From sequence record OR508996.1: a stretch of DNA of 58,539 bases; one strand, written 5' to 3'. Every line of letters begins with the position of its first letter. Within the stretch, counting starts at the first letter, position 1. A program made the position numbers and the translations under genes. The notes beneath the pieces are model-generated. The model did not search any database, had not been told where the DNA came from, and worked only from the letters and a program-made list of their open reading frames with translations. Of the stretch, positions 18,286-46,550 are shown one piece after another. Source of the stretch: Enterobacter phage Mulvp2.

Positions 18286-18899
18286 CTACCCAAGAACTGC
18301 GCGCTAAATTAGATTCGCTGGATGCAAAGTTTTGCGACTTGTATATTCAGCGCGATATTAATAACCTGGAGATTGCTGACATTGCGGCTAAACTGTGGCC
18401 TGACATGTTGCACCCGGCGCAGAAAGCGGCGCGCGTTCTGAAACGTCCTGACGTACAAGCCTACCTGACTGCGCTGCAGTCTGACTTCACGCACGGCGTC
18501 GAGATGCAGCTTGCAGAAATCCGTCTGCGACTTGCCCAGGACGTCCGCGGCGTGCACGACCGTTTCCCGTACCTGGAGTGGCTACCCGTTCGGGATGAGA
18601 AGGGGCGCACCCGGTTCAAACCGCACATCCTGTCCGTCGATGACATCCCGCCGGAGGATCGCCGTTATATCGCCATGCTGGAAGAATCGGATAACGGGTA
18701 TTACGCCGTGACGCTCGTTGATGACCTGCTACCGAAAGACCGGAACAAAGCGTACGAAATGCTGATCCGTATGCAGGGTGGTTTCAACGACAACGTGAAC
18801 CTGAATGCCAGCGTACGCACCGTCACCCCGGACGACGTGAACAACGCACCGGACAGCAAGGCGGCGTGCGACCTGTATCAACAGGCTATGAAAGGTTAA
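18282..18899 (+). CDS. terminase small subunit (putative)
   Basis: 205 aa. N-terminal HTH-like region and position immediately upstream of the HNH/TerL cluster. Confidence 0.55.
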   Translation: MTTQELRAKLDSLDAKFCDLYIQRDINNLEIADIAAKLWPDMLHPAQKAARVLKRPDVQAYLTALQSDFTHGVEMQLAEIRLRLAQDVRGVHDRFPYLEWLPVRDEKGRTRFKPHILSVDDIPPEDRRYIAMLEESDNGYYAVTLVDDLLPKDRNKAYEMLIRMQGGFNDNVNLNASVRTVTPDDVNNAPDSKAACDLYQQAMKG

Positions 18900-18936
18900 A
18901 ATAATTGTTGACGACGTGTACCGAGTGTCGTATCAT
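18896..18936 (+). promoter_or_regulatory. sigma70 consensus promoter cassette: TTAAAATAATTG UP-box + TTGACG -35 + 17 bp + TATCAT -10
   Basis: Member of a reiterated cassette family. Downstream GAGGAATTGAAAATG RBS for gene 18969. Confidence 0.6.
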
Positions 18937-18968
18937 TACCTCAACGAAACGAAATTGAGGAATTGAAA

Positions 18969-19289
18969 ATGATTAACGAATTCAAGAAAATCGCACCATA
19001 TATCGTCGAAGCAGTTAAAGAACGAGTGTCCAATGACATGAGCGATGATGAAGTGATGCAGATTATTCATGCTGAAATCGTGTCATTCTTCGAAAAACAA
19101 CAAAACATGTTTACTCAGTTTTTAACTTTTACATCCGAACAACGTGCTGTGTTCACCGGCGTTATGTATGATGTTCTGGCACCATTAGCGGCAACTGTTA
19201 AGACGACTCCGAACCCTATCTATCAGTCTTACGTTGAACGCACAGGTAAAACCGGAGCTTTGAACTTCATCACCCAGCGCGACGCGTGA
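18969..19289 (+). CDS. hypothetical protein
   Basis: 106-aa ORF from the ATG following the cassette RBS. Confidence 0.5.
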   Translation: MINEFKKIAPYIVEAVKERVSNDMSDDEVMQIIHAEIVSFFEKQQNMFTQFLTFTSEQRAVFTGVMYDVLAPLAATVKTTPNPIYQSYVERTGKTGALNFITQRDA

Positions 19290-19441
19290 TATACTCCCCT
19301 CATAGCACAGGGGAGCACCATGATAGACAAATCAACTTATCAAGCCCTGCGTGATGCGGGGCTTTTCCTATCAGCAGGCGATTGACAGCCTTTTTATTTG
19401 TCTGTACTGTAAAACAATTACGTGTAACGTAGAGATTAAAC

Positions 19442-19936
19442 ATGATTACGCAACAACTGCTCAAACATTTCCTGAACTACGACCCTGAAACAGGACACTT
19501 CACATGGCGTGTCAGAACTTCAAACCGTATAAACATTGGAACAATTGCGGGTACTGTCGATACAAACGGCTATTTGCGGATCCGTGTCTGCGGTAAAGTT
19601 CGCGCCGCACATCGTTTAGTATGGCTTTATGTACACGGATACTTTCCTGAAGGTGACATTGACCACGTTGACGGTAACAGGTTAAACAACGCTTTAAATA
19701 ACCTTCGTGAATGCAACCGTAGTCAAAACCTACTGAACAAACCTATTCAGGATAACAACGTAACCGGCGTGAAAGGCGTATGTTGGGATAAGCGCCGCCA
19801 GAAATGGGAGGCTTATGCGAAGCATCAAAACAAGAAAGTTCACATCGGTAGATTTGAAAACTTTGACGATGCGGTAAGAGCACGAAAAGAGTATATTGAT
19901 AACAATTATGATATGTCTTTTTATCGGGAAAAGTGA
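19442..19936 (+). CDS. HNH endonuclease with AP2-like DNA-binding domain
   Basis: 164 aa. HRLVWLYVHGYFPEGDIDHVDGNRLNNALNNLRECNRSQN is an HNH motif. C-terminal AP2-like VTGVKGV..WEAY. Adjacent to TerL. Confidence 0.8.
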   Translation: MITQQLLKHFLNYDPETGHFTWRVRTSNRINIGTIAGTVDTNGYLRIRVCGKVRAAHRLVWLYVHGYFPEGDIDHVDGNRLNNALNNLRECNRSQNLLNKPIQDNNVTGVKGVCWDKRRQKWEAYAKHQNKKVHIGRFENFDDAVRARKEYIDNNYDMSFYREK

Positions 19937-21690
19937 TGATTGATAGAGACACTTACACAGCTCTAACTCAGGCAGGGTTATCACATCAGGACGCGCTGAT
20001 CTCAGTCGGTGCGGATCCTCGCGTTATGCACTTCACACCAGTCGATTACAAAGCTGAATGCGAACGCCGTATTCGGTTGCTACAGCGGTTACGTAAAGAC
20101 CCTGAACTGGCTTTCGCTGCTCACACTCATTACAAACATAATCCTGTTGATTGGTGTTTAGATTGGGCCGTTACGTATGACCCGCGTAACGCAACACGTG
20201 ATTTACCAACGCTCATGCCTTTTGCTATGTTCCCTCGCCAAGTGGATTTAGTTCAATTTTTACATTCCGCCGTTCTTGATGAAGAAAACGGACTAATTGA
20301 AAAGGCGCGTGACATGGGTGCGACATGGGTTGCTTCCGCGTTCAGTGTCTGGTTATGGCTCTACTGGCCCGGCGCTGCGATCGGCTTCGGCTCACGCAAA
20401 GAAGAACTTGTTGACAGACTAGGTGATAGTAAATGTATTTTCGAAAAAGTCAGGTCTATTATTCGCAACCTGCCATCCGATCTGTTCTGGCCGAAAGGGT
20501 TTCATCCTGACAAACACATGACCTACATGAAAATCATCAACCCGTCGAACGGTGCGACGATCGCCGGTGAAGCGGGTGATAATATCGGTCGTGGTGGTCG
20601 TACGCTGATTTACTTCAAAGATGAGTCCGCACACTATGAGCGTCCTGAACTTATCGAGGCAGCGCTGGGCGATAACACCAACGTGCAGATCGACATCTCG
20701 TCAGTTAACGGGATGGGCAACGTGTTTCACCGTCGTCGCATGGCGGGCTTTGAGTGGAACCCGGGCTGCACTGCGCCGGCGGGCAAGACGCGCATTTTCA
20801 TCATGGACTGGAGTGACCATCCGGGCAAGACGCAAGCCTGGTACGATGCGCGCCGACAGAAAGCCGAGGATGAAGGTCTGCTGCACGTATTCGCCCAGGA
20901 AGTCGACAGGGATTACAGTGCGGCGGTCGAGAACATTCTGATACCTGCAGCATGGGTGCAGGCAGCGAAGGGTGCGCACATCAAACTCAACCTGTCACCA
21001 TCCGGTAAGCGCACCGCCGGGATGGACGTTGCGGATGGCGGTAGCGACGTAAACGCCCTGTGCATGATGCGCGGTATGCTCGTTGAGCACATGGAGACGC
21101 TCGCCGGTGACGGTGACGACGCGTACTATGATTTCCACGCCAAAGCTGCACAGCGCGGCGCACACGAATTCTGGTATGACGTAACGGGCATCGGGCGCGC
21201 TGCGAAAGTTGCCGCGAAGAACACCGAGAACGAAATGCCGGTGTTCGCCTGGGTGCCGTCCGGCGCTGTGGTCAATCCGCATGAGTCGATTATGGGCGAC
21301 GGTGACGAGGATGTGACGCGCACGAACCGCGACCATTACGCCACGCTCAAAGCGCAGGCGTGGTTCTATCTGCGCCGCCGCTTCAAGAAGACGTTCGACT
21401 GGGTGCGCACCGGCATTCCGTGCGATCCGGATGACATTATCAGCTTGCCGGAAAAAGCACCGTGGGTTGACAAGCTGATAACGGAACTCGGTCAGGTCAC
21501 GTACGGTTATCAGTCCGGCGGCAAGGTCATCGTGAACAAAGCGCCAGCGGGCACGAAGTCGCCTAACATGGCGGATGCCCTGGTCATTGCTGCGATGCAG
21601 CCTAAGCCTAACGCCAAAGTGATCGCTCGTCGTGCCACACCGCGCGCCGGACTCGTTCAGTCAGGTGCAGGAAATTACGACGGATTATAA
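19933..21690 (+). CDS. terminase large subunit
   Basis: 585 aa. Deviant Walker A KARDMGATW of the K-x-R-x-x-G-x-[ST] Terminase_6 type. Size and context fit. Confidence 0.85.
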   Translation: MMIDRDTYTALTQAGLSHQDALISVGADPRVMHFTPVDYKAECERRIRLLQRLRKDPELAFAAHTHYKHNPVDWCLDWAVTYDPRNATRDLPTLMPFAMFPRQVDLVQFLHSAVLDEENGLIEKARDMGATWVASAFSVWLWLYWPGAAIGFGSRKEELVDRLGDSKCIFEKVRSIIRNLPSDLFWPKGFHPDKHMTYMKIINPSNGATIAGEAGDNIGRGGRTLIYFKDESAHYERPELIEAALGDNTNVQIDISSVNGMGNVFHRRRMAGFEWNPGCTAPAGKTRIFIMDWSDHPGKTQAWYDARRQKAEDEGLLHVFAQEVDRDYSAAVENILIPAAWVQAAKGAHIKLNLSPSGKRTAGMDVADGGSDVNALCMMRGMLVEHMETLAGDGDDAYYDFHAKAAQRGAHEFWYDVTGIGRAAKVAAKNTENEMPVFAWVPSGAVVNPHESIMGDGDEDVTRTNRDHYATLKAQAWFYLRRRFKKTFDWVRTGIPCDPDDIISLPEKAPWVDKLITELGQVTYGYQSGGKVIVNKAPAGTKSPNMADALVIAAMQPKPNAKVIARRATPRAGLVQSGAGNYDGL

Positions 21691-21728
21691 AATAATTGTT
21701 GACAGTGTGAACAACGCAGGACTACACT
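21686..21728 (+). promoter_or_regulatory. promoter cassette TATAAAATAATTG + TTGACA + 18 bp + TACACT
   Basis: About 80% identical over about 80 bp to the minus-strand cassette at 37030..37106. Followed by the ACAGTGAGGAATTAGAGATG RBS. Confidence 0.6.
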
Positions 21729-21762
21729 CGCACTGTCAATTAAACACAGTGAGGAATTAGAG

Positions 21763-22095
21763 ATGTTTGAGCGGCTTGCTAAATTATTTCGGCGTAGTGG
21801 GGATAAATTGTCCGAGCTGAAGTGGCCTGATTCAAGAGAGATTGACTACACTCGTCAGGGTTGGGGTCATGCGTTACATATCGGCAAAAACTGGACCACC
21901 GAAAAACCCTTCAATATGACCGGTCATTACTTTGGGCGCGGTTTGATTTTTGATAAAGGTATCAAAGAGGGTGATGTGTTACTTATTGGTATGACCAACG
22001 GGTCGACAGGCAAGTTGCGTGTTCACAAAATTGAATGGTTCCGTGACCCGAATGACATGTTTTCGGCAAAAGTGCGGTTTGACGGGTTGAAATGA
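21763..22095 (+). CDS. hypothetical protein (moron-like, own promoter and terminator)
   Basis: 110-aa ORF. Confidence 0.5.
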   Translation: MFERLAKLFRRSGDKLSELKWPDSREIDYTRQGWGHALHIGKNWTTEKPFNMTGHYFGRGLIFDKGIKEGDVLLIGMTNGSTGKLRVHKIEWFRDPNDMFSAKVRFDGLK

Positions 22096-22130: not shown

Positions 22131-22156
22131 GCCGCTGTAACAGGCGGCTCTTTTTG
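22131..22156 (+). terminator. rho-independent terminator GCCGCTGTAACAGGCGGC + TCTTTTTGGG
   Basis: Perfect 6-bp GC stem plus T-run. Confidence 0.5.
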
Positions 22157-22190
22157 GGCGTAATCGTAAAATAATTGTACGGAGTGTATT

Positions 22191-22442
22191 GTGACACGTA
22201 AACTGATTTACACACCTGATGCCGCCGGTGAGTACACTATCGCCGAAGAGTCAGAAAACTGGGTGACAGACATCGGGCAGGTAGAAAACGAATCGGATGC
22301 CATACTGTTCTGTGCTGCGCCCGATCTGCTCGAAGCGCTTCAAGGAGTAGTTAATAAATGGACTTTCGGTCCGGCGTATAACGCACCGGAATTCGTCGCC
22401 GCCCGCGCAGCAATCGCCAAAGCACTGGGAGAAACGAAATGA
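22191..22442 (+). CDS. hypothetical protein (GTG start)
   Basis: 83-aa ORF. A TAAAATAATTGTACGGAGTGTATT box and SD GGAG lie 6 nt upstream. Confidence 0.45.
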   Translation: MTRKLIYTPDAAGEYTIAEESENWVTDIGQVENESDAILFCAAPDLLEALQGVVNKWTFGPAYNAPEFVAARAAIAKALGETK

Positions 22443-22969: not shown

Positions 22970-23216
22970 TATTAAAACAGATAGTTTTCGTGTGCGACTT
23001 TGCGGACTTTTTAGAAACGGACCACAAAGATAAATGCAAACGATGACGTTGTTCTGATGGCGGCTTAACAGCCTGTAAATCAGTGAGGTATTCCAGTTCC
23101 TCATTACCTAATCTGGCGCACTGGCCCGGTGTGATTAATAATGGGCGCACAACAGGTAAGAGCATTACAGGTGACGGAGACTAGCGATTAGCTATATGCG
23201 AAAGCTCTAGAAGCCA

Positions 23217-23241
23217 AGGCGGTTCGACTCCGCAAGTGCTC
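23217..23241 (+). other. tRNA-like T-arm plus acceptor-3' fragment (GGCGG TTCGACT CCGCA AGTGCTC T), not a complete tRNA
   Basis: GGTTCGACTCC T-loop consensus and a 7-bp acceptor pairing with GAGCATT at 23159. No D or anticodon arm could be folded. Confidence 0.3.
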
Positions 23242-23480
23242 TTTCCGTTGTGGTGAACACGCGATATAGGCGCGATTCGGAAGATAGAATTGTCACAGTG
23301 GAGCTGACCAAACGATGAGAACCGGCAGATCTGAGTCAGCAGCGCGTCCCGGTTAAGTGACAGCCTGTACCACAACCGCTGATACCCTAACAGGAGGTGA
23401 ATCCTGTATCTTGCTGACAGGTAAGCTGTAAGCCGCCGGGTTAACATTGTGAAATGTGATAACGGCGACGAATTACCGCA

Positions 23481-23520
23481 TTGACGTGCGGTTTTCTTTG
23501 GTCTAAAGTATAAAATAATT
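23481..23520 (+). promoter_or_regulatory. promoter TTGACG-17-TAAAGT followed by a TAAAATAATTAATCGCGGAGTGTA leader box
   Basis: Same class of box as at 22166 and 18121. Confidence 0.5.
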
Positions 23521-23538
23521 AATCGCGGAGTGTACGAA

Positions 23539-23742
23539 ATGAAATGGTGGGTAGCTATCACACTGGTTGTAACAGCAGTCATATACGTCGTGCTAGCGTT
23601 GGCAGTTTTCGCAATAGCATTTGTCACATGGGATTTGAGTGTAATAACTGACGCTTTCCAAAAGCTAACCTGGTTCGGATTCAGAGCAGCAACCTTTGTA
23701 TCTGGGGTTATTGCGTTTTTCATAGTGACATTACAGGAGTAA
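23539..23742 (+). CDS. small two-TM membrane protein (holin-like topology)
   Basis: 67 aa. MKWWVAITLVVTAVIYVVLALAVFAIAFV...FGFRAATFVSGVIAFFIVTL. Confidence 0.5.
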   Translation: MKWWVAITLVVTAVIYVVLALAVFAIAFVTWDLSVITDAFQKLTWFGFRAATFVSGVIAFFIVTLQE

Positions 23743-23745
23743 CTA

Positions 23746-26850: not shown

Positions 26851-26914
26851 TAGACACCCCGCCCAACGCTCTGTTACACTAAAGGGAATATTAATGTAAC
26901 GGAGCGTCATTCCG

Positions 26915-29087: not shown

Positions 29088-29281
29088 ACGCACGCCCTCA
29101 TGATAATAAGCTGGTTGATATAGTCGTCTATTTCGGCGCGGATCTTCTCGCGCGCTTCCGGTTCGGTTTCACAGTCATAATGCGTCAGCCGGGTAAATAC
29201 CAGGTAGTCACGTTCGACTGTCGGCTTACCGTCTGACCCTCCGCGGAGCCGGACACCGAGTTGTGGGATTAATTTACTCAC
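29084..29281 (-). CDS. hypothetical protein (GTG start)
   Basis: 65-aa ORF. GTGAGTAA overlap with the upstream ORF. Confidence 0.4.
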   Translation of the reverse strand: MSKLIPQLGVRLRGGSDGKPTVERDYLVFTRLTHYDCETEPEAREKIRAEIDDYINQLIIMRACV

Positions 29282-29450
29282 TTACCACCTCACATTCGTA
29301 CGGGTAGACCATTATCAGATCGTTTTTCCATTCGCACTGATAACTTTCTACGTCAGGTCCATCACGTATGATGTCTTGAACATGCAAAATGTCATCTTTT
29401 TGTGGGTGGTCTTCGCGTTCACTCCAGGGTTGAAGCATTTTTACTTTCAT
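29273..29450 (-). CDS. hypothetical small protein (58 aa), not in the supplied track
   Basis: ATG 29450 after SD AGGTGA. MKVKMLQPWSEREDHPQKDDILHVQDIIRDG... Confidence 0.35.
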
Positions 29451-29477: not shown

Positions 29478-29519
29478 TATAAAATAATCGTTGACAGCGT
29501 GTAAGTCAAGTCCTATAGT
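29478..29519 (+). promoter_or_regulatory. promoter cassette TATAAAATAATCG + TTGACA + 17 bp + TATAGT
   Basis: Consensus sigma70 spacing. Followed by the AAACGGAGTGGAAAATG RBS. Confidence 0.6.
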
Positions 29520-29548
29520 TCAATCACACCAAACAAACGGAGTGGAAA

Positions 29549-30283
29549 ATGAAACTTTTAGAATTGTTAGTTAAAGAGCGGATCGAGTGGCACCCGGAAG
29601 CATTGTGCTACACGCAGGACGGTAATTTAGAAACATACGGTTACTCGGATACTTCATTGGAATTAGACGAAGAGTGGGAAGAATGGTCAGTCGAAAAAAT
29701 GATAGACTGTACAGGCGGTACACTCGACGAACTCGCCGACGACTGGGAAACCGCCATCGTGACCAAAGAGCAGTACGACAACGCGTGCAAGCTGGTCGAC
29801 GACGGTTACACACTGTGGTTCGGCGGTGAATGCCCGGTGAACGCGCATGAGGTGGTCGAGGTAGTATTTGACGTGTCGCGTGAAGGAGAAACTCATCAAA
29901 CTGAAGCATCGTATGTTAATTGGCAAAAAGAAGCGGCGTCTATTATTGCTTATAAAGTGATAAATTCGAAACCTGACGGTAGTCGTGAGCCGATAGGTTT
30001 TAACTGTCGCTGTGTAGATGAAGAACTGTCAATCGTATACGATCCTGCCGATCTGTTATCTCTGCACGTACCGGACGTCGTGAATCATCCGTCACACTAT
30101 ACTAACGGTAAGGTTGAGTGTATTGACGCGATCGAATCAGCTACCGTCGGCAAGACAGGCGTTGAAGCGGTCTGCGTGGCAAACGTGATTAAATATCTGT
30201 GGCGTTATGAAGATAAAAACGGCCTGGAAGATATCAAGAAAGCAGAGTGGTACCTGAACAAACTGATCGAGGTGAAGAAATGA
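29549..30283 (+). CDS. acidic protein with C-terminal DUF3310-like domain
   Basis: 244 aa. C-terminal SHYTNGKVECIDAIESA...NVIKYLWRYEDKNGLEDIKKAEWYLNKL resembles DUF3310. N-terminal 170 aa strongly acidic. Confidence 0.5.
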   Translation: MKLLELLVKERIEWHPEALCYTQDGNLETYGYSDTSLELDEEWEEWSVEKMIDCTGGTLDELADDWETAIVTKEQYDNACKLVDDGYTLWFGGECPVNAHEVVEVVFDVSREGETHQTEASYVNWQKEAASIIAYKVINSKPDGSREPIGFNCRCVDEELSIVYDPADLLSLHVPDVVNHPSHYTNGKVECIDAIESATVGKTGVEAVCVANVIKYLWRYEDKNGLEDIKKAEWYLNKLIEVKK

Positions 30284-33043: not shown

Positions 33044-33305
33044 GACATGCTTCGCGTGACATCAGCACAGGGTTTGTTTTAACAATGTTGCTCGCAATAA
33101 TTGTGGTCGGCACTTTATATTGGTAATAACCGATCTCTTTAGCACCGGTTGCTGATTCTTTAATGTTGCAATCATGTTCACGAAGGTACCATGGCGCCCC
33201 TGGTTTACAGCGACTAAGGATGAAATGACGACCTAGATATTCCGTGATACGTTCGTTGGTACTAAGAACTGACCATTCGACACCTTGCACTTTTACATTT
33301 TTCAT
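32982..33305 (-). CDS. hypothetical protein
   Basis: About 107 aa from MKNVKVQG, after the RBS CAGGAGTGAGGAACATATG. Confidence 0.45.
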   Translation of the reverse strand: MKNVKVQGVEWSVLSTNERITEYLGRHFILSRCKPGAPWYLREHDCNIKESATGAKEIGYYQYKVPTTIIASNIVKTNPVLMSREACREPLALLCEPMPQSVYDLLV

Positions 33306-33345
33306 ATGTTCCTCACTCCTGTTCAAATTGACACCTTAAACATAA

Positions 33346-33362
33346 CACACAATTATTTTAAT
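33346..33362 (-). promoter_or_regulatory. UP-box copy TTAAAATAATTGTGTG (minus-strand orientation) upstream of gene 32982..33305
   Basis: Member of the reiterated AT-box family. Core hexamers are weaker here. Confidence 0.35.
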
Positions 33363-33427
33363 GTGTATTCTTTTTCGTTATAACAATTCGCAAAACGACG
33401 ATTCATCGCTTAAGTAAATTTAGTCAA

Positions 33428-33456: not shown

Positions 33457-33737
33457 ATGAACTATTTATTAACAATCATTTAATAGCCTGACGCTCAGGG
33501 GTGAGTTTCTACGGGGTGGCTGCAAGCCGCGTCGTTACTGGGTTCACCACGAAAAACCGTACACCCCATACATTGCTCTCTATTCCCTGTATAGATCTCA
33601 CCGTCACTATGACGTACTGTATACACACCCCATTTACTAATTTATAGAAAGTAAAGGGTATAAGGGGTAAAGTCAGCAATGGTGCGTTGCCCAACACTGG
33701 TCGTACCAGATTTTTAGTTCGGGCTACGGGGTATACG

Positions 33738-33766
33738 TTGCACACCAGACCGTTGCGTGGTACGAT
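33738..33766 (+). promoter_or_regulatory. putative sigma70 promoter TTGCAC-17-TACGAT for the head protease/scaffold/MCP operon
   Basis: Located 20 nt upstream of SD GCAGGAGGA and ATG 33786. Confidence 0.4.
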
Positions 33767-33785
33767 CCGCGCAGGAGGACACTGT

Positions 33786-36760: not shown

Positions 36761-36788
36761 AGCCCCGCGATGCGGGGCTTTTTGTTTT
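36761..36788. terminator. rho-independent terminator AGCCCCGCGATGCGGGGCT + TTTTGTTTT, shared with the convergent minus-strand gene
   Basis: Perfect 8-bp stem plus T-run. Confidence 0.6.
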
Positions 36789-37032
36789 AGTCCGGATAGT
36801 TCAACCCTCGATTATCATATTCTTCTCCGTAGCGCCGCATATACTCTTCAAGCATCTTACGCATTTTATTTTTACCGTGACGCATTACGCCGAAATGAAA
36901 AACTTCTTTTATAAGTTGATCAGCATTATTAATGCCGTTCAAACTCTGTTTCGGAATTTCTACGGTTGATGTACCGCGAATTGTGTCAATTTTGAGAACA
37001 CATTTTCCTGACAACTGTACTTGCTTACTCAT
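36787..37032 (-). CDS. hypothetical moron protein on the opposite strand with its own promoter cassette
   Basis: 81 aa. RBS ACAGTGAGGAATGAGAGATG identical in type to that of the plus-strand gene 21763. Confidence 0.5.
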   Translation of the reverse strand: MSKQVQLSGKCVLKIDTIRGTSTVEIPKQSLNGINNADQLIKEVFHFGVMRHGKNKMRKMLEEYMRRYGEEYDNRGLNYPD

Positions 37033-37056
37033 CTCTCATTCCTCACTGTGTTTAAT

Positions 37057-37106
37057 ATACTGTCAGTATAGTCACACCTTGCACACTGTCAACAATTATT
37101 TTAACC
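37057..37106 (-). promoter_or_regulatory. minus-strand promoter cassette GGTTAAAATAATTG + TTGACA + 16 bp + TATACT, overlapping the palindrome ATACTGtCAGTAT (37057..37069)
   Basis: Reverse complement of the plus-strand cassette at 21686. Confidence 0.55.
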
Positions 37107-37155
37107 TATCGTATAAAATGCGCACAGGCTATACTACGGTCAGGAGGACACAACT

Positions 37156-37506
37156 ATGTCAACTTTCTTTCGTAACAAGCCTGTATTTGCACGTGTAGCA
37201 TTCACCTACGCTGGCGTTGAGTATCAGCCCGGCGACGAGTTCAAAGCACCGGCGCACAAAGTGCAGCAGATGTGGTTCGCACGCAAACTGACGCATGACG
37301 GCGCGGTTGATGACGCACCTGCTGTTGATGACGCACCTGCTGTTGATGACGCACCACTGGTCACGCTGGAACACAAAGGGGCAGGCTGGTACAACGTGTT
37401 GATGTCCGGTGCGCAGATGAACACCGACAAAATCAAAGGTAAAGACGCGGCGATTGAGTGGGCTGTGACTAATCTCGGGGTGACTGAAGATGTCATCAGC
37501 GTATAA
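37156..37506 (+). CDS. hypothetical structural-region protein with 3x VDDAPA tandem repeat
   Basis: 116 aa. Exact 18-bp DNA tandem repeat at 37306..37359. Confidence 0.5.
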   Translation: MSTFFRNKPVFARVAFTYAGVEYQPGDEFKAPAHKVQQMWFARKLTHDGAVDDAPAVDDAPAVDDAPLVTLEHKGAGWYNVLMSGAQMNTDKIKGKDAAIEWAVTNLGVTEDVISV

Positions 37507-41453: not shown

Positions 41454-42030
41454 GGAACGCGGATACGGTCACTATCCTGTTAAACAGGAAGACCGTCCGT
41501 ATGACGCGTCGTATTTTGAAAAGTACCGCAAGATGGCGAACACGCCGATCGGACACGCACTGACGAAAGCGCGCGTCGACCTGGTGCGTAAATATTACCC
41601 GGGTTTCAATCTGGTTGATGTAGGGATTGGATCCGGTCAGTTTGTCACGGCTTCAGGGGTGCTAGGATATGATGTCAATCCTGCCGGGGTCGAATGGCTG
41701 AACCAGCGTAACCGGTTTGCGGACATGTACGCCGGTCAGTATGATGCGATGACGTTCTGGGATAGTCTGGAGCACATCGATGATATGTCCGCTGCGGTAG
41801 AGCATATTGACCGCTTTGCGTTTGTCAGTATCCCTGTATTCAGCGGGTATGACGACGTGCTGACGTCAAAACATTTCCGACCAGATGAGCATATTCATTA
41901 CTTTACCGTCGCTGGATTGATCCGCTGGTTTGACGAGCAGGGGTTTAACTGCAGGGAATACAACCAGATTGAATCGGATATCGGACGGGAAGGGATCGGA
42001 ACGTTCGTATTTGAAAGAAAGCCCGCGTAG
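41437..42030 (+). CDS. class I SAM-dependent methyltransferase
   Basis: 197 aa. Motif I LVDVGIGSGQF. Acidic post-I motif YDVNP. Confidence 0.6.
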   Translation: MLTWDEERGYGHYPVKQEDRPYDASYFEKYRKMANTPIGHALTKARVDLVRKYYPGFNLVDVGIGSGQFVTASGVLGYDVNPAGVEWLNQRNRFADMYAGQYDAMTFWDSLEHIDDMSAAVEHIDRFAFVSIPVFSGYDDVLTSKHFRPDEHIHYFTVAGLIRWFDEQGFNCREYNQIESDIGREGIGTFVFERKPA

Positions 42031-42048
42031 TGCGGGCTGTTTTTATTC
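42019..42048. terminator. bidirectional terminator AAGCCCGCGTAGTGCGGGCT + GTTTTTATT
   Basis: Perfect hairpin between convergent genes. Confidence 0.55.
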
Positions 42049-43111: not shown

Positions 43112-43303
43112 TTAAGCGTGGCGCGCGGTGCGAATGTGGAAAAAGTCGTCAATTTTCATGAATCCATCGGCGAGCATTTCCTGTTTTTCAGGGCGAGCCA
43201 TGCGACGAGCAGTACGCGATGCAACTTTATTGTTACGTGCTTCAGAAGATGCAGCACGACGTTCTTTACGACCTGGACCGAATACCATTTTGATGAATTT
43301 CAT
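43112..43303 (-). CDS. highly basic small protein (Arg/Lys-rich, 63 aa) with its own consensus promoter
   Basis: MKFIKMVFGPGRKERRAASSEARNNKVASRTARRMARPEKQEML... Confidence 0.5.
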   Translation of the reverse strand: MKFIKMVFGPGRKERRAASSEARNNKVASRTARRMARPEKQEMLADGFMKIDDFFHIRTARHA

Positions 43304-43354
43304 TTTGCTTACCTTTTCAATTTAGAGAAGCGTTATTGCGTCTCGACATGGCTA

Positions 43355-43398
43355 ACTTTACACACGGTCATACATACTGTCAATAATTATTTTAACCT
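43355..43398 (-). promoter_or_regulatory. minus-strand promoter cassette GGTTAAAATAATTA + TTGACA + 17 bp + TAAAGT
   Basis: Member of the cassette family. Confidence 0.55.
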
Positions 43399-43417
43399 AT
43401 ATCGCCTCAATTACCCG

Positions 43418-43426
43418 TGATATACT
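43418..43426 (+). promoter_or_regulatory. extended -10 element TGaTATACT upstream of the tail tube gene
   Basis: Same element type as at 18052. Confidence 0.3.
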
Positions 43427-43464
43427 CTGATAGCACTAGTGTAAATTACTCATGAGGACAAATC

Positions 43465-44907
43465 ATGGCTCTCGATCCGTGCGACAATCGCGCAGCAGAC
43501 GGCTCGGCTACATCGATTAGCCTGTGCCGTGTTAACGAACCGGACTCCGGTACGGTATGGACTTATCAGGAACCGAACGAAGTCAGTTCATGGGGTGCGT
43601 CACTCGAAACGGTTGCCCGTCAGCCTTTGAGCCTCGACCGCGCCGCACGTAAAGGCACCGTAACCAGTCTCAGCGCTGAGGCAGGATTCACCGCCGATCA
43701 GTTCATTGACAACCTGGCGTATCTGCTTGACGCGCTGGTATTCAGCGTCTGGAAAGGTAACAACCCGAACGGTACAGCATCAACCGGTGCTACCGCGTCA
43801 GGTTACAGCGTTGCATCCGGCGGTACAGCTTTCACCCAGGGCACGCTCGTTTATGTCTCAGGTTTTGACATGGCAGCGAACAACGGTCTGAAAGTCGTCG
43901 GCTCAGGTTCAACGAACACGAATATCGCTGTGACCGGTCTGACGGTCGATGCCAGCACGGGCACCGTGTACAAAGCAGGTATTCGTTATTCCACCGGTTC
44001 GCTGACGATGGATGCACAGGGTAACCTGGTATCTGAGGCAACTGCTGTAGACTTCACGACGCTCGGTCTGACGCCTGGTCAGGTCATCGGTCTGACAGGT
44101 TTCAGCACTGGTGCTGACGGTACAGCGCGCGTGCGTCAGGTAACCGCCACACAAATCACCCTGGACCATCACAGCGGCACGCCGGCGGCTATCACTCCGA
44201 GCGGCAACGTGGATCTGTACATCGGTTCATTCGTGCGCAACGTGTCAATGGACAACGTGGACTATCAGTGCGTACCGTTCACCGGTGAAGCGCGATACAA
44301 CACCAACCCGACCACGTACGAATATGCGCGCGGTATGCTGCTGAACCAGATCGCGTTCAACAACAGCCTGGAAGATAAAACCACGCTGGAAACCACGTTT
44401 ATCTGTGAAGACGTGGAAGCGATGACCGAAACCCGTCTGCCGGGCATCTGGGAAAACTACGACCGCACCGAAGCGTTTAACACGTCGGCCGACTTTACCG
44501 ATCTGCGCCTGTTCATTACCGGCGACCTGACCGGTGACACGACGTTCTTCAAAGACACCACGTTGACGATCAACAACAACCTGTCCGGCGAGTCCGTACT
44601 GGGTAAACTCGGTCCTGAATTCATCAACCTCGGTGATTTCGCTGTGACCCTGGATACCGAAGTTGTTCTGACCGACACCCGTGTCGCCGCGGCGATCCGC
44701 AATAACACCACCTGCGGTCTGCAGTACACTCAGCAGAACAATGACGGTGCTATCGTGGTCGACCTGCCGACAATGACCCTGGGTGACGGTGCGAAGAACA
44801 TCGCAGCGAACGAGAAGGTTAAACTGACCACTACCGGCACCGCGTTCCTGGACGACGATTACGGTTACGTTGTTGGTTTCAGCCTGTTCCCGTACCTGCC
44901 ACGTTGA
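43465..44907 (+). CDS. major tail (tube) protein, putative
   Basis: 480 aa. Thr/Gly/Ser-rich beta protein upstream of the chaperone/TMP genes, with its own terminator. Confidence 0.5.
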   Translation: MALDPCDNRAADGSATSISLCRVNEPDSGTVWTYQEPNEVSSWGASLETVARQPLSLDRAARKGTVTSLSAEAGFTADQFIDNLAYLLDALVFSVWKGNNPNGTASTGATASGYSVASGGTAFTQGTLVYVSGFDMAANNGLKVVGSGSTNTNIAVTGLTVDASTGTVYKAGIRYSTGSLTMDAQGNLVSEATAVDFTTLGLTPGQVIGLTGFSTGADGTARVRQVTATQITLDHHSGTPAAITPSGNVDLYIGSFVRNVSMDNVDYQCVPFTGEARYNTNPTTYEYARGMLLNQIAFNNSLEDKTTLETTFICEDVEAMTETRLPGIWENYDRTEAFNTSADFTDLRLFITGDLTGDTTFFKDTTLTINNNLSGESVLGKLGPEFINLGDFAVTLDTEVVLTDTRVAAAIRNNTTCGLQYTQQNNDGAIVVDLPTMTLGDGAKNIAANEKVKLTTTGTAFLDDDYGYVVGFSLFPYLPR

Positions 44908-44915
44908 TAAAATAA

Positions 44916-44942
44916 AGCCCCGCAATGCGGGGCTAGTTTTTT
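44916..44942. terminator. bidirectional terminator AGCCCCGCAATGCGGGGCT + AGTTTTTT
   Basis: Perfect hairpin. The stop of the convergent minus-strand gene lies inside the T-run. Confidence 0.6.
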
Positions 44943-45423
44943 AGTCTGGTAAAATGTCAGGAATCTCAGGTTTTTCAAATTCAGCCCATGCTAATAGAAT
45001 CATTTCAGGCTTATTGTCATTCCAGCAACTGGATGTCTGCAATTTTCCGTTTTCCGCCATTTTGAATTCCTGAAGGTACATTCCCCCTTCTTCATAGAAT
45101 TGCTGGTAGAAACCGTGAAATCCAAAGAATTCGCCATCTTCGTTACACCACTCATCAAGCCATCCTGGAGATCCCTTTGGAAATTCGCTTTCGTTCTCAA
45201 AATGTTCAAGTTCCTCCGGAGTGGCTTCAGTGTTTGAATATCGTAACTCTACAACTCGTCGTGTCACATTCTCAAGCGTTGCAATTCGGGTAGCTTTACA
45301 GTCTTCCCCAACACCACCCCATTTACAACTGTACTGACAGAAATCAACCAAACCCCATATTTTAATATCTTTACCGCGTTCAATTTGGGGAATGTCAGAT
45401 GTATTTTTCCAGGTCACATTCAT
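44941..45423 (-). CDS. hypothetical Trp/Cys-containing acidic protein (opposite-strand moron)
   Basis: 160-aa ORF with a compressed UP-box/RBS cassette upstream. Confidence 0.5.
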   Translation of the reverse strand: MNVTWKNTSDIPQIERGKDIKIWGLVDFCQYSCKWGGVGEDCKATRIATLENVTRRVVELRYSNTEATPEELEHFENESEFPKGSPGWLDEWCNEDGEFFGFHGFYQQFYEEGGMYLQEFKMAENGKLQTSSCWNDNKPEMILLAWAEFEKPEIPDILPD

Positions 45424-45527
45424 TATTGCATCCTCACTGTTTACGTCAACGTCAATTATTTTAACCGTTGCTATTCATGCTGTCAACACTGTAAAATAAC
45501 TATCACCAACATAACGAGGTGTTTGAC

Positions 45528-45938
45528 ATGAAAATCCCTGCTTCTTTGCTCAATTCATTTGACCTGAAAGAAACCAACGATATCGAGCTATCGAAAGGTT
45601 TCTTTGTGACACTCTGTGAGAACAACGCCACTAACCCGCTGTGGGCACGCCGCGCGCGTGACTTTATTGCGAACAACCCTGATCACCCGGCAGCCGGTGA
45701 TGAATTCGGCAAATTTATGCTCGGTCTGCGCGACAATGTGACCGATAAAGCTGTGACCGACTTTATCGCTGACGTTCTGGTGATCGGCTGGAAGTCTGAC
45801 GAGCTGGAAGAATACAGTCCGGAAAATGCACGCTTGCTTCTCGGTGCACTTCCCCGCCTGGCATCCAACATTCTGACTCAGGCCAGCATCGAGGCAAATT
45901 TCCGCAATGCTGAGGTGGATGCTGCGGTAAAAAACTGA
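45528..45938 (+). CDS. tail assembly chaperone (gpG-like)
   Basis: 136 aa from ATG 45528 (SD GAGGTG). Immediately upstream of the TMP. Ends 3 nt after the slippery heptamer. Confidence 0.55.
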   Translation: MKIPASLLNSFDLKETNDIELSKGFFVTLCENNATNPLWARRARDFIANNPDHPAAGDEFGKFMLGLRDNVTDKAVTDFIADVLVIGWKSDELEEYSPENARLLLGALPRLASNILTQASIEANFRNAEVDAAVKN

Positions 45939-46285
45939 CAGCACTGCTACTGTGGACCGGCGAGAAACAGGAAGATGACGACAACGAATGGATCCGAAAG
46001 TTAGCGTCTCGCCGCAAAGTAGCAGTGCCTGAAATAGCCGCCGAGAAAGCCGGTAAAGCTCCCGATATACCAGCGCAGCACACGACATGGTTCAATGCGT
46101 ATATGGAGCTTGCAACGTGCCGCACAGAACGCGGTGTGATACCCTGGGACAGCTTGGCGCATTACGCCGAGGTGTACGACTTACCACTGGAAACGCTGCG
46201 CCGGATTGTTCGCCGCGTTGATTTCGTCGTCATGGCAGATCAGAACAAAAAGAACGAAAAACTGATTAAGAAAAAGCCGCGTTAA
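45528..46285 (+). CDS. gpGT-like frameshift fusion product (chaperone plus -1 frame extension from 45935)
   Basis: The -1 frame is open from the slip site to 46285 (...KLTALLLWTGEKQEDDDNEW...KKPR). Canonical G/GT arrangement. Confidence 0.45.
45929..45935 (+). other. -1 programmed ribosomal frameshift slippery heptamer A_AAA_AAC
   Basis: X_XXY_YYZ in the chaperone zero frame (GTA AAA AAC TGA). Confidence 0.5.
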
Positions 46286-46464
46286 GCGGCTTTAGTTTTC
46301 CACAGTGCCCATACCATCATCCCGACCCACGGAACGACAAGCCAGCCTGCCACAATGTTCAGGAACAGCATTACACCGCGTTGTTTAAAGCCCGGGTTGC
46401 ACGCCGCGACGATGTACGGTGCCAGATAGAACAGAATTCCGAAAACGACAAATACAGTATTCAT
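46282..46464 (-). CDS. small two-TM membrane protein (holin-like size and topology)
   Basis: 60 aa from ATG 46464 (SD GAGGA). Convergent 4-nt stop overlap with the GT ORF inside a hairpin. Confidence 0.45.
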   Translation of the reverse strand: MNTVFVVFGILFYLAPYIVAACNPGFKQRGVMLFLNIVAGWLVVPWVGMMVWALWKTKAA

Positions 46465-46550
46465 ACACGTTATCCTCAATTATTTTAACCTGCCGTTGTT
46501 ATCTCACATACAGTATACTGTGTCAATAGTCATTTCAGCGAGACATCAAA

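What the first reader, a model, noticed from the sequence alone, without database searches (positions are those of the whole stretch)
18896..46490. Reiterated ~80-bp promoter/RBS cassette (UP-box TAAAATAATTG + TTGACA, with shared RBS ACAGTGAGGAAT) in at least 11 copies on both strands
The AT-box TAAAATAATT occurs at 18896, 21686, 22166, 23511 and 29478 on the plus strand and, reverse-complemented, at 33346, 37087, 43378, 45448 and 46478. A related copy sits at 18121.
- In most copies the box abuts a consensus -35 (TTGACA/G), followed after 16-18 bp by a -10-like hexamer (TATCAT, TACACT, TATAGT, TATACT, TAAAGT).
- Three copies (22166, 23511, 18121) place the box downstream of the promoter, in a leader with a CGGAGTGTA RBS.
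- Several cassettes share the downstream leader/RBS ACAGTGAGGAAT-N-GAGATG. The cassettes at 21686 and 37030 (reverse complement) are about 80% identical over about 80 bp.
- Every minus-strand moron in the late region carries one.

This points to modular dissemination of ORF-plus-promoter units (moron cassettes), and to a phage that drives late genes with host sigma70 from near-consensus promoters.
Basis: seen in the sequence. Interest (0 to 1): 0.55.

Follow-up and report, generated by a model that had tools for sequence, protein, structure and literature searches.

The report
Repeated phage promoter cassettes with upstream box
A new lytic phage marks about 19 of its gene starts with the same 10-letter A/T-rich box, which most likely helps the host's RNA polymerase bind, and these boxed control regions are where related phages swap small accessory genes; this is a fresh example of a known kind of phage regulatory cassette.

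Summary
The repeat is real. TAAAATAATT occurs 11 times exactly (0.14 expected) and 8 more times with one mismatch. Eighteen of 19 sites are non-coding, and all point toward the next gene. The common unit is about 24 nt (box, N7, RYGTRTA), not 80 bp. Only two copies share an 80-bp cassette.

Five copies sit 1 nt upstream of TTGACR-N16-18-TAnnnT, so the box spans -46 to -37, where a proximal UP element lies. Its reverse complement is identical to the core of the E. coli rrnB P1 UP element.

In four divergent regions the inverted box lies 26-28 nt upstream of a -35-less TATACT-type -10 that heads a structural operon. Other late operons use extended -10 promoters (TGnTAYACT), as a distant Vibrio relative does.

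Other copies overlap a -10, lie in a spacer, or sit beside a ribosome-binding site.

Between close relatives, accessory ORFs are replaced exactly between these cassettes and terminators, as with PeSL cassettes of T4-like phages.

It is unresolved whether the near-invariant box is read only by the RNA polymerase alpha subunit or also by a phage protein.

The parts
1039..1102 (-). Cassette in which the exact box (1069-1078) supplies the -10. TTGACG(1102-1097)-18-TAAAAT, then an SD and the ATG of the HTH-like gene 676-1041.
   Evidence: conserved in L020 and L023
5015..5051 (-). Exact box (5042-5051) inside the exonuclease gene 4916-6058. It overlaps TTGACA, with TTAATC 17 nt on, so it is a possible internal promoter for the ssDNA-binding-protein gene 4185-4919.
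   Evidence: The codons AAA ATA ATT GAC are identical in a 72%-identical orthologue (read directly).
7911..7982 (+). Two one-mismatch boxes (7911 TAAAATAGTT, 7956 TAAAATAAAT) in the divergent region between the replication operons. The second lies 4 nt before GAGGTGTA-aa-ATG of ORF 7980-8120.
11066..11096 (+). Variant box TAAAACAATT, then actgacGGTGTGTAaaatATG. This is a leader-type copy in front of the HTH-like 54-aa ORF 11094-11258.
15078..15166 (-). Terminator hairpin (15148-15166) plus TTTTTATTTA, then TTGACA(15138)-16-CATAAT with the variant box (15120-15129) inside the spacer, then the ATG of 14775-15080.
   Evidence: The orthologue in L005 has the exact box.
17610..17691 (-). Variant box TAAAACAATT 11 nt upstream of TTGACT-17-TAACAT, so the box spans -56 to -47, the distal-subsite position. 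It heads the operon 17612 to 15172.
18897..18971 (+). Box-plus-promoter cassette (UP-type box 1 nt before the -35): box, g, TTGACG-17-TATCAT, a leader, then the ATG of 18969-19289. The TAA of the box is the terS stop codon.
   Evidence: The alignment with the nearest relative ends at 18971.
19410..19444 (+). Variant box behind a T-tract, in front of the HNH endonuclease ORF 19442-19936. The ORF is an insertion absent from the nearest relative.
21688..21765 (+). Box-plus-promoter cassette (UP-type box 1 nt before the -35): box, g, TTGACA-18-TACACT, the leader ACAGTGAGGAATTAGAGATG, then ORF 21763-22095. The TAA of the box is the TerL stop codon.
   Evidence: Alignment breakpoint at 21765.
22131..22193 (+). 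Terminator hairpin, then the box (22167-22176), then gtacGGAGtgtatt-GTG. This is a leader-type copy with no -35.
   Evidence: A block 100% identical to the relative ends at 22187, and a different ORF follows.
23475..23541 (+). Hairpin holding TTGACG-17-TAAAGT, with the box (23511-23520) 1 nt after the -10, then GGAGtgtacgaa-ATG of 23539-23742.
   Evidence: breakpoint at 23544
29480..29551 (+). Box-plus-promoter cassette (UP-type box 1 nt before the -35) with a one-mismatch box (TAAAATAATC): g, TTGACA-17-TATAGT, then ORF 29549-30283. On the other strand, TTGACT-17-TATTTT uses the inverted box as its -10 for 29274-29450.
33303..33366 (-). Exact box (33351-33360) flanked by the inverted repeat ACACAT/GTGTGT, upstream of ORF 32982-33305. 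On the plus strand, TTGACA-17-AATTAT overlaps it.
37030..37158 (.). Bidirectional unit. Minus strand: box (37094-37103), g, TTGACA-16-TATACT, then ORF 36787-37032. Plus strand: inverted box, ACCT, N22, TATACT (37130-37135), then the head-tail operon from 37156.
43301..43467 (.). Bidirectional unit. Minus strand: box (43385-43394), a, TTGACA-17-TAAAGT, then ORF 43112-43303. Plus strand: inverted box, 26 nt, then TGATATACT (43418-43426), then the major tail gene 43465.
45421..45530 (.). Bidirectional unit. Minus strand: TTGACA(45486)-17-TAAAAT, where the -10 is the first six bases of the box (45454-45463), then ORF 44941-45423. Plus strand: inverted box, 28 nt, then TAAAAT (variant box 45492-45501), then the tail chaperone gene 45528.
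46462..46553 (.). Bidirectional unit. Minus strand: TTGACA-17-GATAAC, with the box (46478-46487) at about +4 to +13 abutting GAGG, then ORF 46282-46464. Plus strand: inverted box, 26 nt, then TATACT (46514-46519), then the tape-measure gene 46551.
26872..26880 (+). Extended -10 TGTTACACT in front of the portal gene. This is a late-type promoter without a box, conserved in L001, L004 and L015.
33758..33766 (+). Extended -10 TGGTACGAT, 6 nt before the SD of the scaffold and capsid operon (33786). TGnTAnnnT is kept in all relatives.
19287..19295 (+). Extended -10 TGATATACT followed by a leader hairpin. In relatives it sits directly upstream of TerL. Here the HNH gene has been inserted behind it.

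Best explanation
The box is the upstream A/T module of a clade-specific promoter cassette read by the host sigma70 RNA polymerase.

**Full cassette.** In its full form the cassette is a terminator hairpin plus TTTTTATTT, then about 9 nt, then TAAAATAATT, 1 nt, TTGACR, rYGTRTA, about 10 nt, TAnnnT, a leader with SD, and the ATG. In this form the box spans -46 to -37. I infer that it acts as a proximal UP-type contact for the alpha C-terminal domain. This makes very strong -10/-35 promoters for small accessory ORFs, many of them antisense islands within the structural module.

**Inverted use.** The same box, read from the other strand, lies 26-28 nt upstream of a TATACT-type -10 with no -35. There I infer it substitutes for the missing -35 or TG contact of the promoters that head the structural operons. 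[quoted passage not shown]

**Other copies.** The remaining copies have the box overlapping a -10, inside a spacer, at the transcript start, or 3-6 nt before an SD. These are cassette derivatives. Their box is either re-used (TAAAAT as a -10, or an A/U-rich leader) or is a recombination remnant.

**Recombination.** Because the core of 24 to 80 nt is repeated, the cassettes act as homology joints. Accessory ORFs are exchanged at these joints between related phages.

**Shown:** the motif, its enrichment, its orientation, the fixed spacings, conservation across relatives, and breakpoints at the cassettes.

**Inferred:** alpha-CTD binding, promoter activity, and timing.
For: - **Enrichment and placement.** There are 11 exact copies against 0.14 expected. 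About 19 sites are found with a weight matrix built only from relatives. Eighteen are non-coding although 91% of the window is coding, and all are co-oriented with the next gene. Box-derived words are the top non-coding 8-mers.
- **Promoter context.** Of the 15 sigma70-like matches scoring at least 10 of 12, eight belong to the box-bearing promoters described here and three more overlap a box or a variant. In the clade, 27 TTGACR-N16-18-TAnnnT sites have the box at exactly 1-nt spacing (24 exact, 3 with one mismatch). The other 44 regex matches have 4 or more mismatches.
- **Position.** Box centres are at -41.5 (same-strand promoters), -43.5 (inverted) and -51.5 (17682). The terminator T-tract is at about -61. 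The published alpha-CTD sites are near -43, -53 and -63 (PMC3326320).
- **Sequence.** AATTATTTTA is identical to part of the rrnB P1 UP element. This was verified by a 100% match upstream of 16S rRNA next to murI in all 5,426 E. coli genomes.
- **Fixed inverted spacing.** An opposite-strand -10 starts 26 nt (14 cases), 27 nt (2) or 28 nt (3) after the box, while the intervening 22 nt are not conserved.
- **Late operons.** They use TGnTAYACT, conserved in relatives. A distant Vibrio relative with the same gene layout uses GTGATATACT six times and has no box.
- **Gene swapping.** Ten of 12 whole-gene replacements against the nearest contig are bounded by a cassette or start codon and a terminator. 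The cargo ORFs lack homologues and are lower in GC, 46.5% against 53.2%.
- **No phage polymerase.** No sigma factor or RNA polymerase gene was found.
Against: - Alpha-CTD makes no base-specific contacts and natural UP elements are degenerate (PMC3326320). Here the 10-mer is more conserved than the -10 hexamers of the same promoters: 3 changes in 270 positions against 17 different -10 hexamers.
- A second block at fixed distance is present even where there is no -35. T at +20 occurs in 59 of 61 copies, and RYGTRTA spans positions 17-23. No RNA polymerase contact is known at that spacer position.
- Seven or eight copies lie where an UP element cannot act: at a -10, in a spacer, or in a leader.
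- Orientation and distance differ from rrnB P1, where the same 10-mer spans -55 to -46.
- Other enterobacterial phages do not use this 10-mer in multiple copies.
- No transcription data exist for this phage.
Confidence: 0.55

Rival explanations
1. The box, together with the GTRTA block 9 nt downstream, is the operator of a phage-encoded sequence-specific DNA-binding protein.

The protein would bind at about -42 of the -35-less late promoters and activate them. It would bind over the -10, spacer or start site of the leftward promoters (45454, 46478, 15120, 23511, 1069) and repress them. One protein would then switch expression from accessory genes to structural genes, as p4 does at the divergent A2b/A2c/A3 promoters of phi29 (phi29 details are from my own knowledge).
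For: - The 10-mer is nearly invariant and is better conserved than the -10 elements.
- A bipartite motif with strict spacing is kept in copies that have no promoter geometry.
- The box takes variable positions relative to core promoter elements.
- The late promoters lack a -35, and the box sits at a fixed 26 nt from them.
- The motif is clade-specific and absent from the Vibrio relative and from GenBank phages.
- HTH-looking or regulator-like small proteins lie directly behind box copies: 676-1041, 11094-11258 and 14775-15080.
Against: - No protein with a recognised DNA-binding or sigma-like domain was found by Pfam or PHROGs. The only hint is a C-terminal hit of 14775-15080 to a PHROG named 'transcriptional regulator'.
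- The AlphaFold model of 676-1041 is unreliable, with pLDDT 55.
- The site has no dyad or direct-repeat symmetry.
- The box positions match alpha-CTD phasing without needing a factor.
- The box identity to rrnB P1 UP points to the host polymerase.
Confidence: 0.25
2. The selected function of the conserved core is recombination, and promoter activity is secondary. The 24-80-nt identical patches would be linker sequences maintained, and homogenised by gene conversion, because they allow phages of the clade to exchange accessory ORFs without breaking essential operons.
For: - Replacement breakpoints fall at the cassettes: 18971, 21765, 22187, 23544, 37025 and 45431.
- A 22-nt patch is 100% identical between 21688 and 37082.
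- The same leader lies in front of unrelated ORFs in the window and in relatives.
- The PeSL precedent exists, with crossovers mapped between the AT-rich region and the ATG (PMC2839356).
Against: - Homology alone does not explain the fixed 26-nt distance to the opposite-strand -10.
- It does not explain the 1-nt distance to the -35.
- It does not explain the strict co-orientation with genes.
- Paralogous cores within the window are no more alike than orthologous cores between genomes (read). Recent homogenisation is therefore not evident.
Confidence: 0.1
3. The box acts mainly in RNA, as an A/U-rich leader element such as a ribosomal protein S1-binding translational enhancer placed just 5' of the Shine-Dalgarno sequence.
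For: - In about 7 copies the box ends 0-6 nt before the SD, with the ATG 23-30 nt from the box start: 22167, 23511, 46478, 11066 and 7956 in the window, and L001 17699 and L003 5328 in relatives.
- At 46478 a conserved upstream promoter would put the box at about +4 to +13 of the mRNA.
Against: - In the promoter copies where the box abuts the -35, it lies upstream of the predicted start, and in relatives it lies downstream of a terminator. It would not be in that transcript.
- An RNA role cannot explain the fixed spacing to the -35 or to the opposite-strand -10.
Confidence: 0.07
4. The motif is a promoter for a phage-encoded sigma factor or RNA polymerase. For example, GTRTA could be a -10-like element such as the AATGTA element read by phiEco32 gp36, or the 24-mer could be a T7/SP6-type promoter.
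For: - RRTGTRTA resembles AATGTA (PMC12276001). The copy at 15120 contains TAATGTATA.
- The motif is 24 nt long, asymmetric and strictly oriented.
Against: - No sigma-like or polymerase-like ORF was found by Pfam or PHROGs, and every ORF over 300 aa except 34169-35392 (407 aa) has an assigned function.
- In leader-type copies the start codon begins 0-8 nt after GTRTA. A start about 7 nt downstream would therefore miss it.
- The structural operons are not preceded by forward copies.
Confidence: 0.04

Closest known systems
PeSL cassettes (promoter-early stem-loop) of T4-like myoviruses (Arbiol et al. 2010, PMC2839356; Comeau et al. 2014, PMC4122927)
   Same: - Small repeated regulatory cassettes that combine a strong sigma70-like promoter, an AT-rich stretch upstream of the -35, a stem-loop terminator, and the SD and ATG of the next gene.
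- Associated with ORFans.
- Insertions, deletions and replacements between close relatives have their breakpoints inside the cassettes.
   Different: - The sequence is unrelated, and the host genome is a roughly 58-kb siphovirus.
- The AT-rich part is a near-invariant 10-mer.
- In four places one box is shared by two divergent promoters at fixed spacing.
- Cassettes are scattered as antisense islands inside the structural module, not grouped in hyperplastic regions.
- Mini-circles were not tested.
UP element of sigma70 promoters, for example rrnB P1 (Ross 1993 and Estrem 1998/1999 from memory; review of properties in PMC3326320 and PMC4390567)
   Same: - A/T-rich with an A4 or T4 tract.
- Centred near -42 next to the -35.
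- The 10-mer equals part of the rrnB P1 UP element on the other strand.
- Other A/T tracts lie about 10 and 20 bp further upstream.
   Different: - Conservation is far stricter than alpha-CTD recognition requires.
- Relative to rrnB P1 the element is inverted and 8 bp closer (same-strand promoters), or in the same orientation and 5-6 bp closer (inverted copies).
- Many copies lie at positions where an UP element cannot work.
Promoter-class switch of Thermus phage P23-45 (gp39) and T4 AsiA (PMC3950348)
   Same: Two promoter classes occur in one phage: -10/-35 promoters, and -35-less extended -10 promoters in front of the structural (middle or late) genes. This is the arrangement those phages exploit by blocking -35 recognition.
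   Different: - No gp39-like or AsiA-like protein was identified.
- Three late promoters have no TG motif but have the inverted box instead.
- The timing of either class is unknown.
Morons of lambdoid phages (Juhala/Hendrix concept, from memory; contrasted with PeSLs in PMC2839356)
   Same: Single small ORFs with their own promoter and terminator lie between genes of a conserved module, often on the other strand, with deviating GC content.
   Different: - Here the flanking regulatory sequences are conserved and repeated, and they appear to be the exchange points.
- The phage looks lytic: no integrase or repressor was detected among the ORFs scanned with PHROGs or Pfam.

Membership tests
UP element (alpha-CTD binding site) | A/T-rich sequence with A- or T-tracts of 3 nt or more | tested here: met
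   TAAAATAATT contains A4, or T4 on the other strand (direct reading).
UP element (alpha-CTD binding site) | Located upstream of the -35, with subsites centred near -43 and -53 (PMC3326320) | tested here: inconclusive
   Met for the 5 same-strand promoter copies (centre -41.5), the 4 inverted copies (-43.5 to -45.5) and 17682 (-51.5). Not met for 7-8 copies that overlap a -10, lie in a spacer, or lie in a leader.
UP element (alpha-CTD binding site) | Resemblance to a characterised UP element | tested here: met
   The reverse complement AATTATTTTA is identical to 10 nt of the rrnB P1 UP element. The rrnB sequence was verified in 5,426 of 5,426 E. coli genomes upstream of 16S rRNA.
UP element (alpha-CTD binding site) | Stimulates transcription through alpha-CTD (lost with alpha-CTD deletion or R265A) | not testable with these tools
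   Needs in vitro transcription or reporter assays.
PeSL-type regulatory cassette | [quoted passage not shown] | tested here: met
   Scores are 10-11 of 12 matches to consensus, with the box upstream. This is by sequence only.
PeSL-type regulatory cassette | Stem-loop terminator as part of the cassette | tested here: inconclusive
   A hairpin plus T-tract lies 16-20 nt before the box in 12 non-redundant copies. In the window this holds at 15120, 22167 and 23511, with a weak case at 19410. It is absent from the four divergent units.
PeSL-type regulatory cassette | Flanks variable ORFans, and breakpoints between close relatives fall inside the cassettes | tested here: met
   Ten of 12 whole-gene replacements are bounded by a cassette. 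The cargo ORFs have no homologues in relatives.
PeSL-type regulatory cassette | Belongs to T4-like myoviruses, or is sequence-related to described PeSLs | tested here: not met
   The genome is a siphovirus-type genome under 50% identical to any GenBank phage. The motif was not found in GenBank phages. It is an analogue, not a member.
PeSL-type regulatory cassette | Forms mini-circles by recombination between cassettes | not testable with these tools
   Needs inverse PCR on infected cells.
phiEco32 gp36-type promoter | Phage-encoded sigma factor present | tested here: not met
   No sigma domain was found among the 60 ORFs scanned with Pfam or the 40 scanned with PHROGs. A very diverged sigma cannot be excluded.
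phiEco32 gp36-type promoter | AATGTA centred at -11.5, with a start site downstream that serves the gene (PMC12276001) | tested here: not met
   RYGTRTA is similar, but in leader-type copies the start codon lies 0-8 nt after it.
Extended -10 promoter class (for the late operons) | TGn immediately upstream of a -10 hexamer, with no recognisable -35 | tested here: met
   TGnTAYACT lies at 18051, 19287, 26872 and 43418, and TGGTACGAT at 33758. These are conserved in relatives and in the Vibrio phage. It is not met at 37130 and 46514, which have the inverted box instead.

The most novel reading that the evidence does not exclude
The box-N9-GTRTA motif is the binding site of an unrecognised phage protein. 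At shared bidirectional control regions this protein would turn off the strong -10/-35 promoters of the antisense accessory genes and turn on the -35-less promoters of the structural operons. That would be a one-site early/late switch in a previously undescribed clade of enterobacterial siphoviruses, and the repeated site would double as the joint for gene-cassette exchange.
Probability: 0.2. Interest if true: 0.6.

Novelty: new member of a known kind. Interest (0 to 1): 0.4.

Why it matters
- **A testable promoter map.** It gives a promoter map for a phage clade known only from metagenomes, with two promoter classes and about 19 predicted control regions.
- **An explanation for mosaicism.** Conserved promoter, leader and terminator joints are where accessory ORFs are exchanged. 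This extends the PeSL idea from T4-like myoviruses to an unrelated siphovirus lineage.
- **Possible synthetic parts.** The compact bidirectional units, about 90-130 bp with a shared 10-bp A/T box, a consensus promoter one way and a -35-less promoter the other, could serve as engineering parts.
- **A test case for UP elements.** The units allow a test of how one UP-like element serves two divergent promoters.
- **A possible new regulator.** The unexplained invariance of the box, and of the GTRTA block, is the one point that could lead to a new regulator.

Tried and rejected
**RNA and DNA searches that gave nothing for the box sites**
- Rfam at gathering thresholds found nothing in the whole window, and ARAGORN found nothing.
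- Megablast of 18-42 kb against GenBank phages found no relative. The only hit was a 280-bp non-coding element.
- A 35-nt consensus searched against GenBank phages gave only chance-level hits.
- An exact pattern scan of IMG/VR gave multi-copy hits only in the same clade. Most of the 110 stretches are single hits in unrelated contigs.

**Searches for a phage regulator**
- Pfam and PHROGs on about 90 ORFs found no phage sigma factor, polymerase or regulator.
- Homologue searches for 17235-17612, 16523-17254 and 676-1041 found only clade members with no domains.
- The AlphaFold2 model of 676-1041 has pLDDT 55, too poor for a fold search.

**Literature**
- A search for the motif string found nothing relevant.

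**Readings considered and dropped**
- Host-factor sites (IHF, Fis, CRP, CsrA-like), compared by eye with consensus sequences from memory: no convincing match.
- A T4-late-like TATAAATA reading: it fits only some flanks, and the structural operons lack forward copies.
- TTAACC as a -35 for the inverted promoters: the spacer would be 23 nt.
- The motif AACCTAYCGT is not enriched elsewhere.
- A promoter geometry for the leader-type copies: no consistent -10 lies 22-28 nt downstream.

Full report
**What the window is.** PHROG and Pfam hits show a lytic-type tailed phage genome.
- Replication genes: DNA polymerase I (1103-3247, minus strand), two exonucleases, an Enc34-type ssDNA-binding protein, a helicase (8466-10142) and a primase (12278-14587).
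- Structural genes: terS (18282-18899), TerL (19936-21690), portal (26915-28279), major capsid (35758-36753), major tail (43465-44907), tape measure (46551-49316), tail protein (51609-54128) and tailspike (54125-56044, minus strand).
- The polymerase and capsid proteins are under 50% identical to anything in GenBank phages. The nearest are Vibrio lentus siphophages and Pseudomonas KPP23/RSP.
- Megablast of 18-42 kb finds no relative.
- IMG/VR holds relatives of 57-58 kb with 74-99% protein identity.
- My codon-usage gene calls put 90.7% of the window in genes.

**Check of the observation.**
- TAAAATAATT occurs 11 times exactly against 0.14 expected. With up to one mismatch there are 23 matches against 3.8 expected.
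The copy at 29480 has one mismatch, and 18121 is only a weak relative.
- A weight matrix built only from the relatives recovers 18 sites above the level of shuffles. With the 17682 variant, which it misses, that makes 19, of which 18 are non-coding and all point toward the next gene.
- Box-derived words are the most over-represented 8-mers in non-coding DNA. TAAAATAA occurs in 13 of 39 segments, 15 times against 0.44 expected.
- The repeat finder recovers the family independently.
- The 80% identity over about 80 bp between 21688 and 37094 is correct, 65 of 81. It applies to that pair only.

**Anatomy of the motif.** I aligned 61 non-redundant exact copies from the window and its relatives.
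- A second block lies at fixed distance. T at position +20 from the box start occurs in 59 of 61 copies, within RYGTRTA at positions 17-23.
- The unit is therefore box, N7, RYGTRTA, about 24 nt in all.
- The 5' flank comes in two flavours. One is ...ACGRTAGGT in divergent regions. The other is ...ACTA, preceded by TTTTTATTT and a hairpin 16-20 nt upstream, seen in 12 copies.

**Contexts of the window copies**.
- **(a) Box next to a full promoter.** Box, 1 nt, TTGACR, 16-18 nt, TAnnnT at 18897, 21688, 29480, 37094 and 43385. With a 17-nt spacer the box spans -46 to -37.
- **(b) Box one helical turn further up,** at 17682.
- **(c) TAAAAT of the box used as the -10,** at 1069 and 45454. The -35 lies at 17-18 nt and is conserved in three genomes.
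- **(d) Box inside the spacer,** at 15120.
- **(e) Box just after the -10 or at the start of the leader,** at 23511 and 46478.
- **(f) Box 3-6 nt before an SD, with no promoter,** at 22167, 11066, 7956 and 19410.
- **(g) One copy inside a gene,** at 5042. Its four codons are identical in a 72%-identical orthologue.

Across the clade I collected 71 non-redundant regex matches to TTGACR-N16-18-TAnnnT. Twenty-seven have the box at exactly 1-nt spacing, 24 exact and 3 with one mismatch. None has 2-3 mismatches, and the other 44 look random. The same 27 promoters use 17 different -10 hexamers, so the box is better conserved than the -10.

**The box also faces the other way.** In the divergent regions 37033-37155, 43304-43464, 45424-45527 and 46465-46550, the plus strand reads AATTATTTTA-ACCT-N22-TATACT. 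At 45454 the distance is 28 nt and the hexamer is TAAAAT.
- These elements head the head-tail, major-tail, chaperone and tape-measure operons.
- The pattern occurs 3 times against 0.07 expected.
- In orthologous regions of four other genomes the hexamer (TATACT, TACAAT, TACACT or TATTAT) starts 26 nt after the box in 14 cases, 27 in 2 and 28 in 3. The intervening sequence is not conserved.
- No -35-like hexamer is present.
- The box is therefore tied by spacing to promoters on both strands, centred at -41.5 and about -43.5.

**Two promoter classes.**
- Other plus-strand operons start behind extended -10 motifs: TGGTATACT at 18051, TGATATACT at 19287, TGTTACACT at 26872 (portal), TGGTACGAT at 33758 (scaffold and capsid) and TGATATACT at 43418.
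- TGNTAYACT occurs 9 times against 2.9 expected.
- These motifs are conserved upstream of the portal, scaffold and TerL genes in relatives.
- The distant Vibrio phage MG592563 has the same layout, with plus-strand structural genes broken by minus-strand islands at the same junctions. It has no box. It uses GTGATATACT six times in front of plus-strand operons and TTGACA-N3-GTAACGG promoters for the islands.
- The architecture is therefore old, and the box is an addition of the enterobacterial clade.
- A combination of -10/-35 promoters with -35-less extended -10 promoters for structural genes is what P23-45 gp39 and T4 AsiA exploit (PMC3950348). That a similar factor acts here is my inference.

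**Why an UP-type reading is the best fit.**
- Alpha-CTD sites are centred near -43, -53 and -63, and prefer A or T tracts (PMC3326320).
- The box centres (-41.5, -43.5, -51.5) and the terminator T-tract (about -61) fall on that phasing.
- AATTATTTTA is part of the rrnB P1 UP element. I checked the recalled rrnB P1 sequence and found it 100% identical in all 5,426 E. coli genomes, between murI and 16S rRNA.
- No sigma factor or polymerase gene was found.

**What this reading does not explain.**
- Alpha-CTD makes no base-specific contacts (same paper), yet the 10-mer is nearly invariant.
- The GTRTA block is fixed even without a -35.
- Several copies lie where UP elements cannot act.
- Possible explanations are a specific phage protein (candidates sit behind box copies), homogenisation by recombination, or both.

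**Cassettes as exchange joints.** I compared the window with the nearest contig, IMGVR_UViG_3300033074_000969, assembled from L004, L012 and L022.
- Alignment blocks end at 18971, 21765, 22187, 23544, 37025 and 45431. Each lies within 3-8 nt of the start codon behind a box. Blocks also end at terminators 36779 and 44941.
- Ten of 12 whole-gene replacements are bounded this way.
- The same promoter and leader precede unrelated ORFs in the two genomes.
- The cargo ORFs mostly lack homologues in relatives and average 46.5% GC against 53.2% for core genes.
- This matches the defining behaviour of PeSLs (PMC2839356 and PMC4122927). The sequences are unrelated and the phage is not T4-like, so this is an analogue, not a member.

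**Verdict.** The best explanation is a family of promoter, leader and terminator cassettes read by host sigma70 polymerase. Their near-invariant A/T box works as an UP-type element in either orientation, and the repetition makes the cassettes recombination joints. A phage-encoded box-binding regulator remains a live alternative at about 0.2-0.25.

**Seen in passing.** The 569-nt gene-free gap 22970-23538 holds a 280-nt element derived from tmRNA. It has a conserved 10-codon tag-like ORF, and it is shared, unannotated, by about 100 phage records of unrelated families. It deserves its own study.

Noticed in passing
window 22976-23257 (+), within the gene-free gap 22970-23538: A roughly 280-nt non-coding element resembles tmRNA but escapes ARAGORN and falls below Rfam gathering scores.
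- It has a 10-codon ORF after AUAAAU that stays open in all 8 copies examined (ANDDVVLMAA, ANEDRFLMAA, ANEEMYLAVA, ANDTEFLAVA and others).
- The stop codon sits in a hairpin loop. One hairpin and a pseudoknot-like pairing show compensatory changes.
- A 3' tRNA-like part has the T-arm GGCGGUUCGACUCCGC.
- The 5' acceptor strand lies after the tag ORF, unlike standard tmRNA.
- It is the only part of 18-42 kb with megablast hits, found in 104 phage records of unrelated families (Swiduovirus, Gamaleyavirus, Jedunavirus, Klebsiella siphophages). It is unannotated in most of the records listed; three list a hypothetical protein under the match.
   Followed up: partly
window 33306-33785: A 480-nt gene-free stretch lies upstream of the scaffold and capsid operon. 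It is 88% identical in the nearest relative and partly conserved in L015. There is no Rfam match. The box at its left edge is flanked by the inverted repeat ACACAT/GTGTGT, which is conserved in three relatives.
   Followed up: partly
window 676-1041 (-), 11094-11258 (+), 14775-15080 (-): Small proteins with helix-turn-helix-like segments (LGKRWGVTGQSVYNWL and ITAVAEACMVTERTVKLAM), and a zinc-ribbon protein with a C-terminal hit to a PHROG named 'transcriptional regulator', each lie directly behind a box copy. They are candidates for a box-binding factor. The AlphaFold model of the first is unreliable (pLDDT 55).
   Followed up: partly
window 19364-20047: An HNH endonuclease gene (19442-19936, HNH_3 plus an AP2-like domain) with its own box variant is inserted between the conserved TGATATACT-plus-hairpin leader and TerL. 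It is absent from the nearest relative, where that leader directly precedes TerL.
   Followed up: partly
window 14593-14611, 36761-36779, 42020-42038, 44916-44934, 57681-57699: A family of near-identical bidirectional terminator hairpins, AGCCC(C)GC-loop-GCGGGGCT, lies wherever plus-strand and minus-strand units converge. They form the 3' borders of the swapped ORFs.
   Followed up: no
window 18937-18968; L001, L003, L004, L024, L027: The leader CCTCAACGAAACGAAATTGAGGAAT in front of ORF 18969-19289 is conserved even in the most distant box-bearing relatives (about 42% GC). There it precedes a homologous ORF at a different genome position. It may be a leader RNA element.
   Followed up: no
window 37302-37360: Three tandem 18-nt repeats (TGCTGTTGATGACGCACC) lie inside the first gene of the head-tail operon (37156-37506).
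   Followed up: no
window 45528-46550: The tail assembly chaperone genes (45528-45938 and 46025-46285) are separated from the tape-measure gene by an inserted minus-strand ORF for a 60-aa membrane protein (46282-46464). That ORF is conserved across the clade.
   Followed up: no
L144/L145 (Vibrio phage MG592563) 16990-17030, 19330-19370, 23515-23555: The distant Vibrio relative has its own repeated bidirectional cassette, AGTATATCACG-N11-TTGACA-N3-GTAACGG. The plus-strand extended -10 and the minus-strand -35 are only 16 nt apart, and there is no A/T box.
   Followed up: partly
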